A stretch of DNA of 64,000 nucleotides, from NCBI RefSeq assembly GCF_009914755.1, contig NC_060936.1, one strand, 5' to 3'. Source of the DNA: the human T2T-CHM13v2.0 reference genome, Homo sapiens. The position numbers and the translations under genes are program-made. Shown here in pieces: positions 950-8,692 of the stretch. How positions within the stretch are numbered: position 1 is the first letter of the stretch; each line of letters begins with the position of its first letter. The notes beneath the pieces were generated by a model. That model searched no databases, was not told the origin of the DNA, and was given only the letters and a program-made list of their open reading frames with translations.

Positions 950-3470
950 AGGAGAACAAAAATTCAGTATTATACAGATCTAAAACTCGCAAGTGAAAGA
1001 TTGTTTACAAACTTCCTGAATATTATCAATGCAGAACAGCTGTGGAGACTCTAACCTGAAGATCTATACCAAACGTCGTCTGCTTACCACGTAACACAGC
1101 TGCATCTTGAGCAGTGACCTGCCAAGGGCAAAGGACCCCGCTCCCTAGACTTACAGATTTTCTAATGCTTGGGCAGGTGGTTACTGCATGTTCCACATCA
1201 GTCAATGCAACTTAGGACAAAACTAACCAGATACAGAAACAGAAGAGAGGCTGCCGGGACCAGCATATTTCCGTTGCAGCCAAATGGATTTTATTTTTTC
1301 ATTTTATTGATTCTCAGAAGCAGAAAGCATCACTTTAAAAGTTCGTTTGTTCATGCAAACTATATTTGCATTCTTACATTAGTTAAGCTAAGCAGCAAAA
1401 AGAAAACACACACACACACTCACATTTAGCCCATGTCATTTAATTGTCAGTTTCTTTGACATAAAGCGCATCTTCTCCACATGGGCTTCACGTGGTTTGG
1501 AGATGGGTGGGGGAAAACAATCAGGTTTCTTCAGGCTGAGGAGGACTTGCTCAGGCCGATTCCAAACATTGTGCTCGTTCAATGCGTAGAAATGATTTGC
1601 ATGATGGCATGCCGTGATCAGAAGTCATGCATGAGATCCATACACCACAGGACACTACTAATCTAGTCCCTTGCACTGGGTCAGCCTTTGGACAGGACCC
1701 AGCCCTGCACCGTTCACTGTATTTGGAGAAAATGGTAAGAGTTCCATACCGGCTACAATTCTTTGAGTTCTTAAAAGTCCTTCATACACCTTCTGGGTAG
1801 GGAAACAACCAACTAATTGACTAACACCACCAACAACAAAAAACAAACCCAATCCAACAAGCAGATGGATCCGTTGCGTGTATATGTTTAACAGACATCT
1901 CTAACATACAGCCATTGTTGCACATTTTGCAAGATGAACTATTTAATGCTGCTCTGTGTCCAGTACATGGGGGAGACTTTGATCCCAAATGGCTTGTACT
2001 ATTTATGTCACTGTAAAACCAAATCCTAGGGCTAAAAAAAAAATTCATTTGTATCTTGCAATATTTATGACGATCGTTTAGCCTTCATACTGGAGAATTG
2101 ACACTTATTTGGGGTAGAGATAAAAGTGCTTTTCAAAGTAGCACCAGTTATCTCTAGGGGTAATTTGGGGAACTTAAAATGACCTTTCATTGGGAGTTAT
2201 GGGGTGCTCATTTCATTTCGTATCATGTCCTCTGCATTGTGGCTTTCTCCAGGCATGGGTCGATACCGCGAGGGGTTCAGATATTCTGAACTGACCTCTC
2301 TCTTCTGCAGAGGGGTCATCGCATACTCACACACTGCATGGCTCCCCCTGCCTCCATCACATTTCTCCACTGAGCAGGGCTTCCCTTGCCCACAGAGGTG
2401 GGTGAGGGTAGCAGCATTGGGGTTACGGCTGTGGTTTCTTTCACTTATTATTAGAATAATAGTCACTGGTGAGACCTGAGGTAGAGATGGAGCCGCCTCT
2501 GAACCAAGCCCACTTGGTTTCTTTACTGCACTGGTTTTCATGAGAAAGCAATTTAATATTAATTCTTTAGGATGTTCCAGCTTCCCTCAGTGCATTCCCT
2601 TGCAGCCAGTTTTGCTATCTGCTTAGCGACCTGCCCATTGTCATTGAAGTGTGGCTTCTGGGGGAGCGTCATATCTTCCATTCCATCTCCTGCTTTAGGA
2701 AAGACAGTTTTTAGTCCAGGGGTTTCTCACCTAATGACTGGATTTCAAAGCCAAGATGCTGCAGTTGAATGTGTCAGGAAGTCTCTATACAAAGAGTGAA
2801 AAGAGACTTTAGCATGTGAACCAAATCCAAATAAATTCTTCCTGAACCATACACTAGAGGGGGAAGAAGAACCAACCCATAATCAGACACACCGATCTGC
2901 CTTGCAGTAGAAGCACTTTGAAGGTAATTTCACAGTCCACCAGACTAGTTTTGCATAGAACAAACCACAGTAAGTCGGCAAGCAGAGCTTTCTATCTTGT
3001 TGGACCACTAGAAACTGTCCAGCTCTCTTAAGCCTGCTTCTGCAGCAGCATCCGTAGAATTTTTGTACTACACCCAATACCAGACTGGGAAGGCCTATCT
3101 TTCAGTGACCCTGCTAACTGCTAGGATGAATGTATAGTAACATGTACAGGCTACATTGTAAACAGCACAAAACAGAAGCTGACATGTGTGGTTATTCTTT
3201 TTAAGAGAATTATAAATACTGTAATATATAATTTTATTTTATTGGCATGCCTTTTTGTAAATACAAATTATTAACTTATTAAATAGGAAATGGCTTCTGG
3301 CTTATGCCATTGTCATGTTTATTTTTATTTTTTATACTTTTCTTTCTTCTTAGAACTTAGATGCTGTCAGCCAATGTACATCCCCAAACCAGACAGACAG
3401 ACAAAAAATTTTTTATTGCTAATGGTCTTTTCCAAAACAACAAAAAATATATATTTTTGTTCCAATGTGC

Positions 3471-3476
3471 AATAAA
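3471..3476 (+). terminator. Proximal polyadenylation signal (AATAAA) of SCN8A
   Basis: AATAAA at the end of a long U/A-rich block (3190-3470), with TGTA at 3375-3378 upstream and TTGTTCTT downstream. Confidence 0.7.
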
Positions 3477-5769
3477 TTCTAACCACGTCTATGCAAGATT
3501 TGGCTAAACTTAATAATTGTTCTTAGGTCTTGAGATGGGCAACAGAGCTGTAAGATCCCGCCAAGTACACCATGTGCTCATGCTAGTGATGTCATTAAGC
3601 TACTAGGGCATAGTGATGAGATTTTTCTGAGATCTAACCGTTTCCCTCCGCTAGCTCCTGACCCCAGCCCAGCAGGCTGTCTCCTCAGTAACACATGGGC
3701 CTTGGTATCTGGCACCCATCAGCCAGCCTCATAGGAAAGAAGCCACCTCCGCTGTATTTGAAGTTTCACTTTTTAAAAAAAAAATGTTTCCCACCTTTTT
3801 ATCCTTCACCCACTGTCCTTCCACCTGCTCACTCACTCACTCTCTCACCCATCCTGCTCCACACTTCTTTGGTAGTAAATGACACCATCACCAGCAGTTT
3901 ACACCCGCAGTTAACAGGCATCGAACTGAAAGAATCAGTGATGACGTTTTTGTGCATCTTCGCTGAGTGGGTAAGTGGCAACGCTTTGCCAAATATTAAC
4001 GAAGCCAATCAAAGAGCAGCGCAGCCACAGTATCACTGCACATATATATATAGATATATAAATATAATATAAATATTTATTTTTTGTAGCCAGGTCCTTG
4101 GTGCAGTATTTATACTCCACAATCCACCTTTTAAAAAAAGGACAAAAAGCAAAAAGATGTGTGATGCTGTTAATAATTTAAAATGCAGAGCCAAAGCCAC
4201 TGAGCAGCAGCTGACATGGTTGCTGGTTTGTGTGTGAAAAACATTTTCCCCCTCTTCTTTCCTTAACCTCCTTGTTGCTTAGGATGAGGAGACTCTGTAA
4301 TTTAAAGCAGAGGACGAGAGGAGGAAGAAACTTCCATGTTAACATGGCCTACTCTCACTCCTTTCTAAACGAGCCACTTTTGGCGTCAGAAGTTGACTGG
4401 AGAGAGATAAACAAACTCCCAGTCAAAGCCCCTAAAGCGACAGTGCCCAGAGTTCTTTTATTTTTTGCTGCAACCAACGTAAACCTGTAAAAGACCAACA
4501 GTGAAGATTAGTGTATTAGTGAATGCATGGAGGCCAATGCTGCCCTAATGAGACGTGATAAAAAGTCCATCACTCCTCTAAGCCAAAAGGAAACAAAATA
4601 AAAATGACCCTTTTTACTGTACAAGGGAAGCCTGTCTTGGTGTGTTTGTTGCTTGACTATCCCAATTCTTGAGTCCTGGGAGGGGTCTGGGAATTGGGAC
4701 CTTAGCACATTTGGGGAAAGGAGGGGAATAGAGGGAAGAGAAATCAAAGGGGCTCTCGCAAAGTTCTGGCTAAGAAGGAGAGATTGGAAGAAAAGCAAGG
4801 TCCTGACCCCCCCCAGATCCCCACTCACCCATTGCATGTGGCATTCCCCACTACTGGCCGGTGCTTAGAGGCCCATAAAACCTCTCTTCACCTAATCCAC
4901 CTGGCAGAGCCCTCAGAGATGACGTCAGCCAACCCAGCTGGACTGGCCTTACTTCTGCCTTTTTCACCTGTATGTTAAAAAACAAAAACAAAAAAACCCT
5001 ATCCCTGTGCCCCAAAGCTAGGGCATGTGCGATGCCCAACAGCCTCCACTCTGCAAGCTCATACTGGGCCCTGCCCTCCATCGCCCCAGACAGGCCCACA
5101 GACGAGGGCTGGTCTCCTTCACATTTGTGTGGGGGTGGGGGCACGCTTCCTCTTCCTTCTCTCCCTGTCCCCCTTTGGGGACATCCCTCTCTAGGCCTAG
5201 GCCATGTCTCCTGGTTCAGGAACACTCTCTCAGGAGGATCTCGAAGTGCCCACTCTAGTCCGCTCCAGTAGCTCCACTCTGGAGCGAGATGGCTGGTAGG
5301 TCAGTCCCCATCCTCCTCCCCTCGGCCCCCAGCCTCCAGGCCTGCTGTGGAGGTGAGATCGCCATGGGTCATGACTTTGTGACTTGAGTCCTGGGCATCT
5401 TCTGTAATGATGCCTCTTTCTTTTCTCAGATGTTGCCCACAGTTTAGCAAAAAGCTTCGTTCATTTTCAGGTACTCCCCACCCCCTAAAGAATTGGCTGC
5501 AACTTGCCAGCCAGGGGGACATCAGGAGAGAAGAGGAAGTCTGGGTTGGGAGGGGCCCAAGTTTTGCAACAGAGTTTCCATTGTTCAGCTCTGTGCTTTC
5601 TTGGATTCCCTTTCCAAGATTACCAAGATTTCCTCCATTAAAACTCCTGAGGCACCCCCTGCCCCTGCCCCCCACTGCTGTTTGCTGTACATAGAGGCTA
5701 AGTGGGGTGGGGTGGGTGGGTGTGCACATGTGGTGTGTGTGTGTGTGTGTGAAGAATGTATATAGGTAA

Positions 5770-6016
5770 AGGGGAGTGTGGTCCAGTGGTTCCAGAAAAG
5801 GGACAGAACTGTGTTCTGTCCCTAGCTTGACCGCTGGCTCGCTGTGTGGCCTTGGGCAAGTCACTTAACCTCTCTGTGCCTCAGTTTCCCCATCTGTAAA
5901 ATGGGGATAATAATACTGACCTACCTCACAGGGGTGTTGTGAGGCTTTAACTAAATGTTTTGTAAAGCGTTTTGAGATACAGAGGCAAAGGCGCTAGGGA
6001 AGGGCAAAGTATTATT
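5770..6016 (+). mobile_element. Near full-length ancient CORE-SINE (MIR family, MIR1_Amn-like) inside the SCN8A 3'UTR
   Basis: A-box-like TGGTCCAGTGG (5779-5789), then the MIR core GCTGTGTGGCCTTGGGCAAGTCACTTAACCTCTCTGTGCCTCAGTTTCCCCATCTGTAAAATGGGGATAATAATA, then the tail TGTAAAGCGTTTTGAGAT...AAAGGCGCTA...GCAAAGTATTATT. The subfamily is from recall of the consensus. Confidence 0.85.
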
Positions 6017-6349: not shown

Positions 6350-6355
6350 AATAAA
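6350..6355 (+). terminator. Distal polyadenylation signal (AATAAA) of SCN8A
   Basis: Canonical hexamer preceded by tandem TGTA (6318-6321, 6323-6326) and U-rich sequence. A CA lies about 22 nt downstream, followed by U/GU-rich sequence. Confidence 0.85.
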
Positions 6356-6809
6356 GGGTTACGTCAATCTTGTTTTCAACTCTCCTCTTGGACTGGCCTG
6401 TCATTCTGTCATTGCCCTCACACTGAAGCCCAAGGTGGACAGGCACCACCACCTCGCAGGACCCCACTCTGTCCCGTGGCGGGGACAGAAGTCTGCGTAA
6501 GGGCTCACCGCGGCTCAGCCCCTTAGCTGGGCAGGCAGTGCCCTAGCCACTCCCAGGTGTGTGGGAAAGGTTTGGGACTCCACTCAGCATGTCAGGAGGC
6601 CTTGCCTGGCGGGGGGCAGCACCTTGGAGGCGGCGCCCTGCACGTGGGCACACCCCTCTCTAGTGGTGCTGCCTCTGCACACTCCAGCAGAGCCCCAGAG
6701 TAGCCCCGAGGGGGAGCTGCACATCTTGTTCTGGTCCCCATCACGTTTTTCAAGCCCCTTATTGCGCACACACCTTTCCTTCTGGAGCTCAAACTTTCAG
6801 GTCAGACGG

Positions 6810-7459: not shown

Positions 7460-8692
<1,233 letters not shown>

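What the first reader, a model, noticed from the sequence alone, without database searches (positions are those of the whole stretch)
5770..6016. Unusually well-preserved ancient CORE-SINE in the SCN8A 3'UTR, a candidate exaptation
The core at 5840-5940 reads almost as the consensus, whereas other MIRs in this window (6810, 20800, 21340, 56070) are visibly more decayed. Its tail (GTAAAGCGTTTTGAGAT...AAAGGCGCTA...GCAAAGTATTATT) matches, from memory, the older amniote-wide MIR1_Amn type rather than mammalian MIR. An older element that is less diverged implies purifying selection. It abuts the PRE/G4/UG module and is only in the long isoform.
Basis: partly seen in the sequence, partly recalled or inferred. 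Interest (0 to 1): 0.7.

Follow-up and report, generated by a model that had tools for sequence, protein, structure and literature searches.

The report
Near-pristine ancient SINE core in SCN8A
An old jumping-gene copy in the far end of the sodium-channel mRNA SCN8A has kept its 95-base middle almost unchanged while its neighbours decayed, likely because selection preserves it as an RNA control element that includes the tail region's only predicted let-7 microRNA site.

Summary
Observation confirmed. A sense-strand tRNA-derived CORE-SINE fills 5765-6016 of the SCN8A 3'UTR. Its core matches an independent consensus of 74 local MIRs at 63/66 and 89/94 with no deletion; 50 local copies average 67%, best 85%. 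No other genomic place lies within 3 mismatches of the 66-mer. Preservation is confined to the core: the head is ordinarily decayed, so this is not a mutational cold spot. Core states and tail are of the sauropsid type (alligator MIR1_AMi, 42/60, by eye), but the 33-nt deletion of MIR1_AMi is absent, so 'MIR1_Amn' is only partly supported; this tail type is about 40-fold rarer than the MIR tail. Purifying selection is inferred (about 80%), not shown: no orthologues were available. A let-7 site explains only 8 of 95 preserved bases and is predicted partly occluded. New member of a known kind (exapted CORE-SINE); interest 0.45.

The parts
5765..6016 (+). CORE-SINE (Ther1/MIR superfamily), near full length, sense in the distal SCN8A 3'UTR
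   Evidence: 5' end approximate by a few bases
5765..5849 (+). tRNA-derived head, decayed (32/48 to local consensus); A-box stretch 5772-5791 kept (17/20 to MIR1_AMi, by eye), B box degenerate
5799..5823 (+). perfect 11-bp hairpin with a 3-nt loop, formed from the imperfect head stem and overlapping the B box; one of 2 such hairpins in the window
5850..5944 (+). near-pristine core plus post-core segment (89/94 to local consensus; all five differences are states found in published Ther1, MIR1_AMi or MIR_Testu consensus)
5887..5907 (+). predicted core hairpin H1 (7 bp, pair probability 0.87-1.0), inherited from the SINE consensus
5921..5928 (+). let-7/miR-98 8-mer seed match CTACCTCA, the only 6-, 7- or 8-mer let-7 match in the 5.4-kb UTR
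   Evidence: seed from PMC4188135; miRDB lists SCN8A for let-7a-5p
5924..5944 (+). predicted hairpin H2 (8 bp, pair probability about 0.5) that covers the 3' five bases of the let-7 site
5958..6016 (+). LINE-derived tail of the sauropsid (MIR1_AMi-like) type
5686..5764 (+). adjacent, not SINE-derived: PRE-like 8-mers at 5686 and 5757, G4 pattern 5704-5720, (TG)9 5734-5751
6350..6355 (+). distal AATAAA, 334 nt after the element; transcript end 6384 by the supplied annotation

Best explanation
A sense copy of an old, rare CORE-SINE subfamily sits in the long SCN8A 3'UTR with its 95-base core almost unchanged, likely kept by purifying selection as an RNA-level repressive element whose most likely handle is the predicted let-7/miR-98 8-mer site at 5921-5928. 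Shown: position, orientation, core preservation, head decay, tail type, the seed match and its uniqueness in the UTR. Inferred: insertion in an early amniote or stem mammal; selection; let-7-loaded Argonaute binding that lowers stability or translation of the long isoform only; and a second constraint (the two core hairpins or a protein bound to them) to account for the other 87 bases. The Pol III promoter is likely dead (B box degenerate), so the element would act as part of the SCN8A mRNA, not as its own transcript.
For: Core 63/66 and 89/94 against local mean 67%, max 85%. No other locus within 3 mismatches of the 66-mer; one within 3 of the 47-mer 5898-5944. The 38-mer counts of other loci (1, 9, 54, 196) fit one binomial with 23% divergence almost exactly (0.8, 9.5, 53.5, 196.2), which predicts about 0.01 copies at 1 mismatch in 66 and under 0.005 at none; the element is 65/66 to published Ther1/MIR and its one difference is the MIR1_AMi/MIR_Testu state (by eye). 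The other perfect 38-mer copy and 8 one-mismatch copies fall back to 67-81/94. Head and the nearest MIR (144 of 190 aligned bases) are ordinarily decayed. Of the 5 independent loci among the 7 best hits that were fetched, 3 are sense in mRNA 3' ends: L003 1.2 kb after the HS2ST1 stop, L004 and L007 shown by poly(A)-ended retrocopies L006/L013 and L008; P about 1e-5 to 8e-5 if such sequence is 1-2% of the genome (share recalled). L011 lies 1.6 kb after an OAR exon on the same strand. miRDB lists SCN8A, SCN4B, SCD, PRRX1 and CBX5 for let-7a-5p (PMC8400663 Table 4). Only 2 of 47 local MIRs keep the 8-mer.
Against: No cross-species or population data were available, so selection is not shown. Against the local consensus alone the neutral expectation is 0.04-0.6 copies at 5 or fewer differences in 94, so a lucky survivor is not excluded if the five differences are private. 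The three diagnostic core states co-occur in only 1 of 52 other copies, too few to prove a subfamily. The let-7 site explains 8 bases; it is predicted poorly accessible (8-nt unpaired probability 0.007, 28th percentile of the UTR). The site and hairpins are simply part of the SINE consensus, so their presence is a by-product of preservation. HS2ST1, CACNA1D and TRPS1 are not named in the miRDB table, and the chr8:116.5 Mb copy keeps the tail but has lost the site. One search used a query that contains the site, so its hits are biased towards it. The only let-7 reporter result found for SCN8A concerns let-7g-3p, a different seed (PMC8481550). PUM regulation of SCN8A did not reach the threshold in PMC5758885.
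Confidence: 0.5

Rival explanations
1. The whole core is selected as a structured RNA module (two hairpins bound by a protein, acting on localisation, stability or choice of the distal poly(A) site), with let-7 incidental.
For: All 95 bases are kept, not just 8; H1 is predicted stable and H2 hides the seed match; the best relative, L002 (86/94), lies 820 nt after the stop of CACNA1D exon 42A, identified by a published primer; well-kept copies favour sense 3'UTRs.
Against: Hairpins are consensus features; no covariation can be tested without orthologues; no Rfam family matched; no binding protein identified. L002 lies about 390 nt beyond an AATAAA pair and may be outside the mature RNA.
Confidence: 0.2
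2. A neutral lucky survivor: the extreme tail of the divergence distribution of several hundred thousand MIR-like copies, helped by the generally slower evolution of a constrained 3'UTR.
For: Expected 0.04-0.6 copies genome-wide at 5 or fewer differences in 94 and 0.7-1.9 at 3 or fewer in 66 when measured against the local consensus; the window was picked after seeing it; CpG level is ordinary for this UTR (o/e 0.28).
Against: All five differences are published ancestral states; the subfamily is about 40-fold rarer than MIR (5 matches at 3 loci against 196 matches), which shrinks the number of draws; sharp boundary between kept core and decayed head; rivals picked by a perfect 38-mer regress to the mean.
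Confidence: 0.18
3. A DNA-level enhancer or insulator for SCN8A, TMDD1 or FIGNL2, as described for other MIRs.
For: MIR-derived enhancers and insulators are documented (PMC4090950; PMC9148063); the CORE-SINE-derived POMC enhancer nPE2 is the classic case (PMC2000970); a CpG island begins about 1.4 kb downstream.
Against: The supplied RefSeq functional elements do not cover it (nearest 7963-8042); B box, the part linked to Pol III-type insulation, is degenerate; the sense-3'UTR bias of its best relatives points to RNA.
Confidence: 0.09
4. The perfect head hairpin is a Roquin constitutive decay element and drives the constraint.
For: UGU triloop closed by C-G, as in solved Roquin complexes (PMC6294493); perfect 11-bp stem, one of 2 in 64 kb.
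Against: The consensus needs a 6-8 bp stem and a 9-bp stem was inactive; the hairpin lies outside the preserved core; quasi-palindromes can be perfected by template switching without selection.
Confidence: 0.03

Closest known systems
MIR1_AMi (alligator) / Dfam MIR1_Amn
   Same: tRNA head A-box stretch 17/20, core 64/66, the junction after the core, and a colinear tail 42/60 (by eye, PMC7983390 supplement 2)
   Different: MIR1_AMi has a 33-nt deletion after the core; this copy keeps that segment (which carries the let-7 site). The three human tails are closer to each other (39-46 of 54-55) than to MIR1_AMi. Equivalence of MIR1_AMi and Dfam MIR1_Amn is recalled, not tested.
Ther1/MIR, MIRb, MIRc
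   Same: core 65/66, 63/66, 64/66 (by eye); post-core segment present
   Different: tail differs (42/80 with 3 gaps to the local MIR consensus); spacer in the tail 12 nt against 8 in MIRc
MIR_Testu (turtle)
   Same: shares two diagnostic states in and after the core and the A-box stretch
   Different: core 62/66; different tail
MIR-derived miRNA target sites in 3'UTRs (Spengler, Oakley, Davidson 2014, PMC3943519)
   Same: sense MIR in a 3'UTR giving a let-7 seed match; seen only as a citation in PMC4188135; the let-7-specific result is recalled
   Different: here the entire core is preserved and the element is of a rarer, sauropsid-like subfamily; whether SCN8A is in that paper's lists could not be seen
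nPE2 POMC enhancer and nine conserved CORE-SINE elements (PMC2000970)
   Same: CORE-SINE under apparent purifying selection at a neuronal gene
   Different: nPE2 is a DNA enhancer only 59-71% like its consensus and proven in mice; this one is exonic, near-identical to consensus, untested. Figure 7A with the nine loci could not be seen and might include this one.

Membership tests
CORE-SINE superfamily (Ther1/MIR) | about 65-bp CORE domain | tested here: met
   63/66 to local consensus; 65/66 to published Ther1/MIR by eye
CORE-SINE superfamily (Ther1/MIR) | tRNA-derived head with A and B boxes | tested here: met
   head aligns at 32/48; A-box stretch kept, B box degenerate
CORE-SINE superfamily (Ther1/MIR) | LINE-derived 3' segment ending in a short simple repeat | tested here: met
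   5958-6016 colinear with L2-derived tails in PMC7983390 supplement 2
MIR / MIRb (mammalian expansion) | MIR-type L2 tail | tested here: not met
   42/80 with 3 gaps; separate motif classes
MIR1_AMi / MIR1_Amn | tail type and core states | tested here: met
   tail 42/60, core 64/66, by eye
MIR1_AMi / MIR1_Amn | 33-nt deletion after the core | tested here: not met
   segment 5923-5957 is present
MIR1_AMi / MIR1_Amn | best-scoring Dfam model (also MIR1_Crp, MIR1_Saur, MIR_Aves named in PMC7116210) | not testable with these tools
   no Dfam library; names seen, sequences not seen
exapted transposable element | conservation at the orthologous site in distant species | not testable with these tools
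   no vertebrate genome other than the window's own is held
exapted transposable element | divergence from consensus below the family's neutral range | tested here: met
   strength depends on the consensus used
exapted transposable element | demonstrated function | not testable with these tools
   needs reporter or deletion
canonical let-7 target site | 8-mer seed match in a 3'UTR | tested here: met
   5921-5928
canonical let-7 target site | accessible context | tested here: inconclusive
   AU-rich flanks (0.67, 0.57) and 456 nt from the end, but 28th percentile for accessibility
Roquin CDE | YRN triloop | tested here: met
   loop 5810-5812
Roquin CDE | stem of 6-8 bp | tested here: not met
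   stem is 11 bp

The most novel reading that the evidence does not exclude
The CORE domain itself is a transferable RNA regulatory module: this is the best-preserved CORE in the human genome, from an undescribed long, pre-mammalian subfamily, and it belongs to a small set of selected sense copies in long 3' ends of excitability genes (SCN8A, CACNA1D exon 42A, probably SCN4B) where a structured core gates a let-7 site. That would give the long SCN8A isoform its first function and a direct handle on why CORE domains are conserved.
Probability: 0.2. Interest if true: 0.75.

Novelty: new member of a known kind. Interest (0 to 1): 0.45.

Why it matters
SCN8A dosage matters in epilepsy and neurodevelopmental disease, and its long and short 3'UTR isoforms are equally present in brain with no known function (PMC3809569). 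A 95-base element private to the long isoform, with one predicted miRNA site, is a small, precise target for reporter, CRISPR or antisense site-blocking tests. It is also a clean test case for the old question of why SINE CORE domains are conserved. Exapted MIRs and MIR-derived miRNA sites are known kinds, which caps the novelty.

Tried and rejected
Mutational cold spot: rejected, since the head of the same element and the MIR 770 nt downstream are ordinarily decayed. Recent gene conversion or duplication: rejected, the closest full-length relative is 80% identical. Independent Pol III transcript: unlikely, B box degenerate. Intramolecular duplex with an antisense MIR in the UTR: none found. 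Rfam: only a chance match at E 0.44 over the element. CpG retention as a sign of selection: 4 CpGs, o/e 0.28, same as the rest of the UTR. Target-site duplication: none. Roquin CDE: fails on stem length. A first consensus-building run drifted to Alu because the seed overlapped an Alu, and was redone with Alus masked. Linkage of diagnostic core states was inconclusive (1 of 52, counted by eye). A genome-wide random MIR background could not be fetched, so the background is the local 264 kb plus genome-wide pattern counts. Supplement S3 of PMC2000970 gave names but no sequences. Spengler 2014, Smit and Riggs 1995, Gilbert and Labuda 1999 and Driscoll 2013 were not held.

Full report
What is there. 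The window holds the last SCN8A exon; the stop is at 947-949 and the annotated end at 6384. Between AATAAA signals at 4597 and 6350 lies a sense tRNA-derived CORE-SINE of about 250 nt, 5765-6016. It has a head (5765-5849), a core with the following segment (5850-5944) and a LINE-derived tail (5958-6016). A review states that Scn8a has poly(A) sites 4 and 6.5 kb after the stop, equally used in brain and without known function (PMC3809569, passages, citing Drews 2005, which I did not see). The human spacing here is 3.65 and 5.4 kb, so 'long isoform only' is consistent but not verified for human.

Is the preservation real? I masked the element and Alus and built a consensus from 74 MIR copies in 264 kb of surrounding DNA. 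The element matches at 63/66 (no gap) and 89/94; the 50 of 74 copies spanning the core average 67%, max 85%. With free choice of window, the best 94 columns score 89 against max 77 in 56 copies. Genome-wide, nothing else is within 3 mismatches of the 66-mer, and one locus is within 3 of the 47-mer 5898-5944. The control 38-mer gave 261 matches and recovered known relatives. The 260 other matches fit a binomial with 23% divergence and about 20,000 effective copies. Extrapolated, neutral copies expected genome-wide are 0.7-1.9 at 3 or fewer mismatches in 66, 0.04-0.6 at 5 or fewer in 94, about 0.01 at 1 in 66 and 0.0005-0.005 at 0 in 66. The other perfect 38-mer copy scores 73/94 and eight one-mismatch copies 67-81/94; the ninth, L002, scores 86/94. 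Preservation stops at the core: the head scores 0.4-0.8 per ten columns, like the local mean of about 0.63, and the next MIR is 76% identical with a 31-nt core deletion.

Which subfamily? PMC7983390 supplement 2 prints Ther1/MIR, MIRb, MIRc, MIR1_AMi and MIR_Testu (I saw passages and supplements 1 part 1, 2 and 3). By eye the 66-mer is 65, 63, 64, 64 and 62 of 66 to these. Each of the five differences from my local consensus is a state in Ther1, MIR1_AMi or MIR_Testu, so no base in 5850-5944 needs a private mutation, although no single printed consensus has all of them. The tail is colinear with MIR1_AMi (42/60, one 1-nt gap) and not with MIR (42/80, three gaps). But MIR1_AMi has a 33-nt deletion after the core that this copy lacks. 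A strict motif for this tail finds 5 matches at 3 loci against 196 matches for the equivalent MIR-tail motif (both counts include repeats of one locus at different lengths). The other two loci are an antisense fragment in a PPP2R2A intron (45 of 54 tail bases shared) and a copy 9.2 kb beyond a GATA-finger exon on the same strand of chr8 (TRPS1 and 3'UTR placement recalled). So this is a rare, long, sauropsid-like form; that it is older than MIR/MIRb is inferred from shared states with alligator and turtle families and from scarcity. Other named families (MIR1_Crp, MIR1_Saur, MIR_Aves; PMC7116210 passages) could not be compared. MIR1_Amn appears in 2 papers of the library; the one read uses it only as a test profile.

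Where do the well-kept relatives sit? Seven best non-self hits were fetched (7 of 40). L006 and L013 are poly(A)-ended copies of L004's sequence ending just after its AATAAA, and L008 likewise of L007, so L004 and L007 are mRNA 3' ends (SCD and CBX5 by recalled position). L003 is 1.2 kb after the HS2ST1 stop. L002 follows a short terminal exon and contains the published human CACNA1D exon 42A primer site (PMC2475692 passages), though the SINE is about 390 nt past an AATAAA pair. L005 gave no evidence. That is 3 of 5 independent loci shown sense in 3' ends. Over together, 16 independent loci were inspected: 4 shown (adding L011, 1.6 kb after an OAR exon; PRRX1 recalled), 2 likely (L002; L020, SCN4B recalled), 1 intronic antisense, 9 unplaced. 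Against a 1-2% genomic share (recalled) this is strong enrichment and points to constraint acting on RNA.

How it most likely works. The core contains CTACCTCA at 5921-5928, the complement of the let-7 seed given in PMC4188135 (passages) extended to the 8-mer; it is the only 6-, 7- or 8-mer let-7 match in the UTR. miRDB predictions tabulated in PMC8400663 (passages) list SCN8A, SCN4B, SCD, PRRX1 and CBX5 under let-7a-5p, but not HS2ST1, CACNA1D or TRPS1. That MIRs supply 3'UTR miRNA sites is cited from Spengler 2014 in PMC4188135; the let-7 link in that paper is my recollection, as the paper was not held. Only 2 of 47 local MIRs keep the 8-mer. My reading: the long isoform carries a let-7-responsive element that the short isoform lacks. 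Against it: the site is half hidden in hairpin H2 (28th percentile accessibility), it accounts for 8 of 95 bases, and it is a consensus feature that any pristine core would show. A second constraint, probably the hairpins or a bound protein, is needed, and the adjacent PRE-like motifs make Pumilio-assisted opening a speculation only (PUM2 represses SCN8A per PMC5758885, but it missed that study's threshold; passages). A reporter study found repression of the SCN8A UTR by let-7g-3p, a different seed (PMC8481550, passages).

The head hairpin. A perfect 11-bp stem with a UGU loop at 5799-5823 is one of two in the window. It derives from the imperfect head stem seen in L002 and wrecks the B box. 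It resembles a Roquin CDE in loop but exceeds the 6-8 bp stem (PMC6294493, passages).

Is it in print? Searches (listings only, except the papers named) showed no paper describing this element. The library lacks most subscription papers; Figure 7A of PMC2000970 (nine conserved CORE-SINE loci; passages) and the lists of Spengler 2014 could not be seen and may include it. DNA-level alternatives come from PMC4090950 and PMC9148063 (passages).

Verdict. Real and unusual; probably exapted (about 80%); most likely an RNA element with a let-7 site (about 50%); a new member of a known kind. Interest 0.45, rising to about 0.75 if the whole CORE proves to be the functional unit.

Noticed in passing
L002:661-1740 (G000:C3:53.82 Mb): The second-best-preserved core seen (86/94) lies sense, about 820 nt after the stop of CACNA1D exon 42A; its tail resembles the tuatara tuaMIRa tail. 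Two voltage-gated channel genes thus hold the two best copies examined.
   Followed up: partly
L004, L006, L013 and L007, L008: Parent mRNA 3' ends and their poly(A)-ended retrocopies, each carrying the SINE; parents likely SCD and CBX5 (recalled positions).
   Followed up: partly
L052 (G000:C8:116536500-116536900, minus): Copy with well-kept tail and part of the core but the let-7 segment replaced by AT-rich sequence, 9.2 kb beyond a GATA exon on the same strand; likely TRPS1 3'UTR.
   Followed up: partly
L010:1496-1598 (minus): 5'-truncated fragment with a very well-kept post-core segment and tail, antisense in a PPP2R2A intron about 890 nt after an exon; unexplained.
   Followed up: partly
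L020 (G000:C11:118.15 Mb, minus): UTR-like sequence with two let-7 8-mers, one in a related SINE; likely SCN4B (recalled), a Nav1.6 partner subunit.
   Followed up: no
window 5652-5725: C-rich and G-rich arms (72% complementary, 25 nt) flank the PRE-like motif at 5686 and could compete with the G4 pattern at 5704-5720.
   Followed up: no
window 950-4840: Six TGCATG (RBFOX-type) motifs and three more AATAAA signals (2830, 3471, 4597) in the proximal UTR.
   Followed up: no
window 5295-5305 and 5915-5925: An 11-nt perfect complement to the stretch overlapping the let-7 site lies 609 nt upstream; E 0.6, probably chance.
   Followed up: no
window 11425-42316: The neighbouring gene FIGNL2 is also in the miRDB let-7a-5p list.
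   Followed up: no
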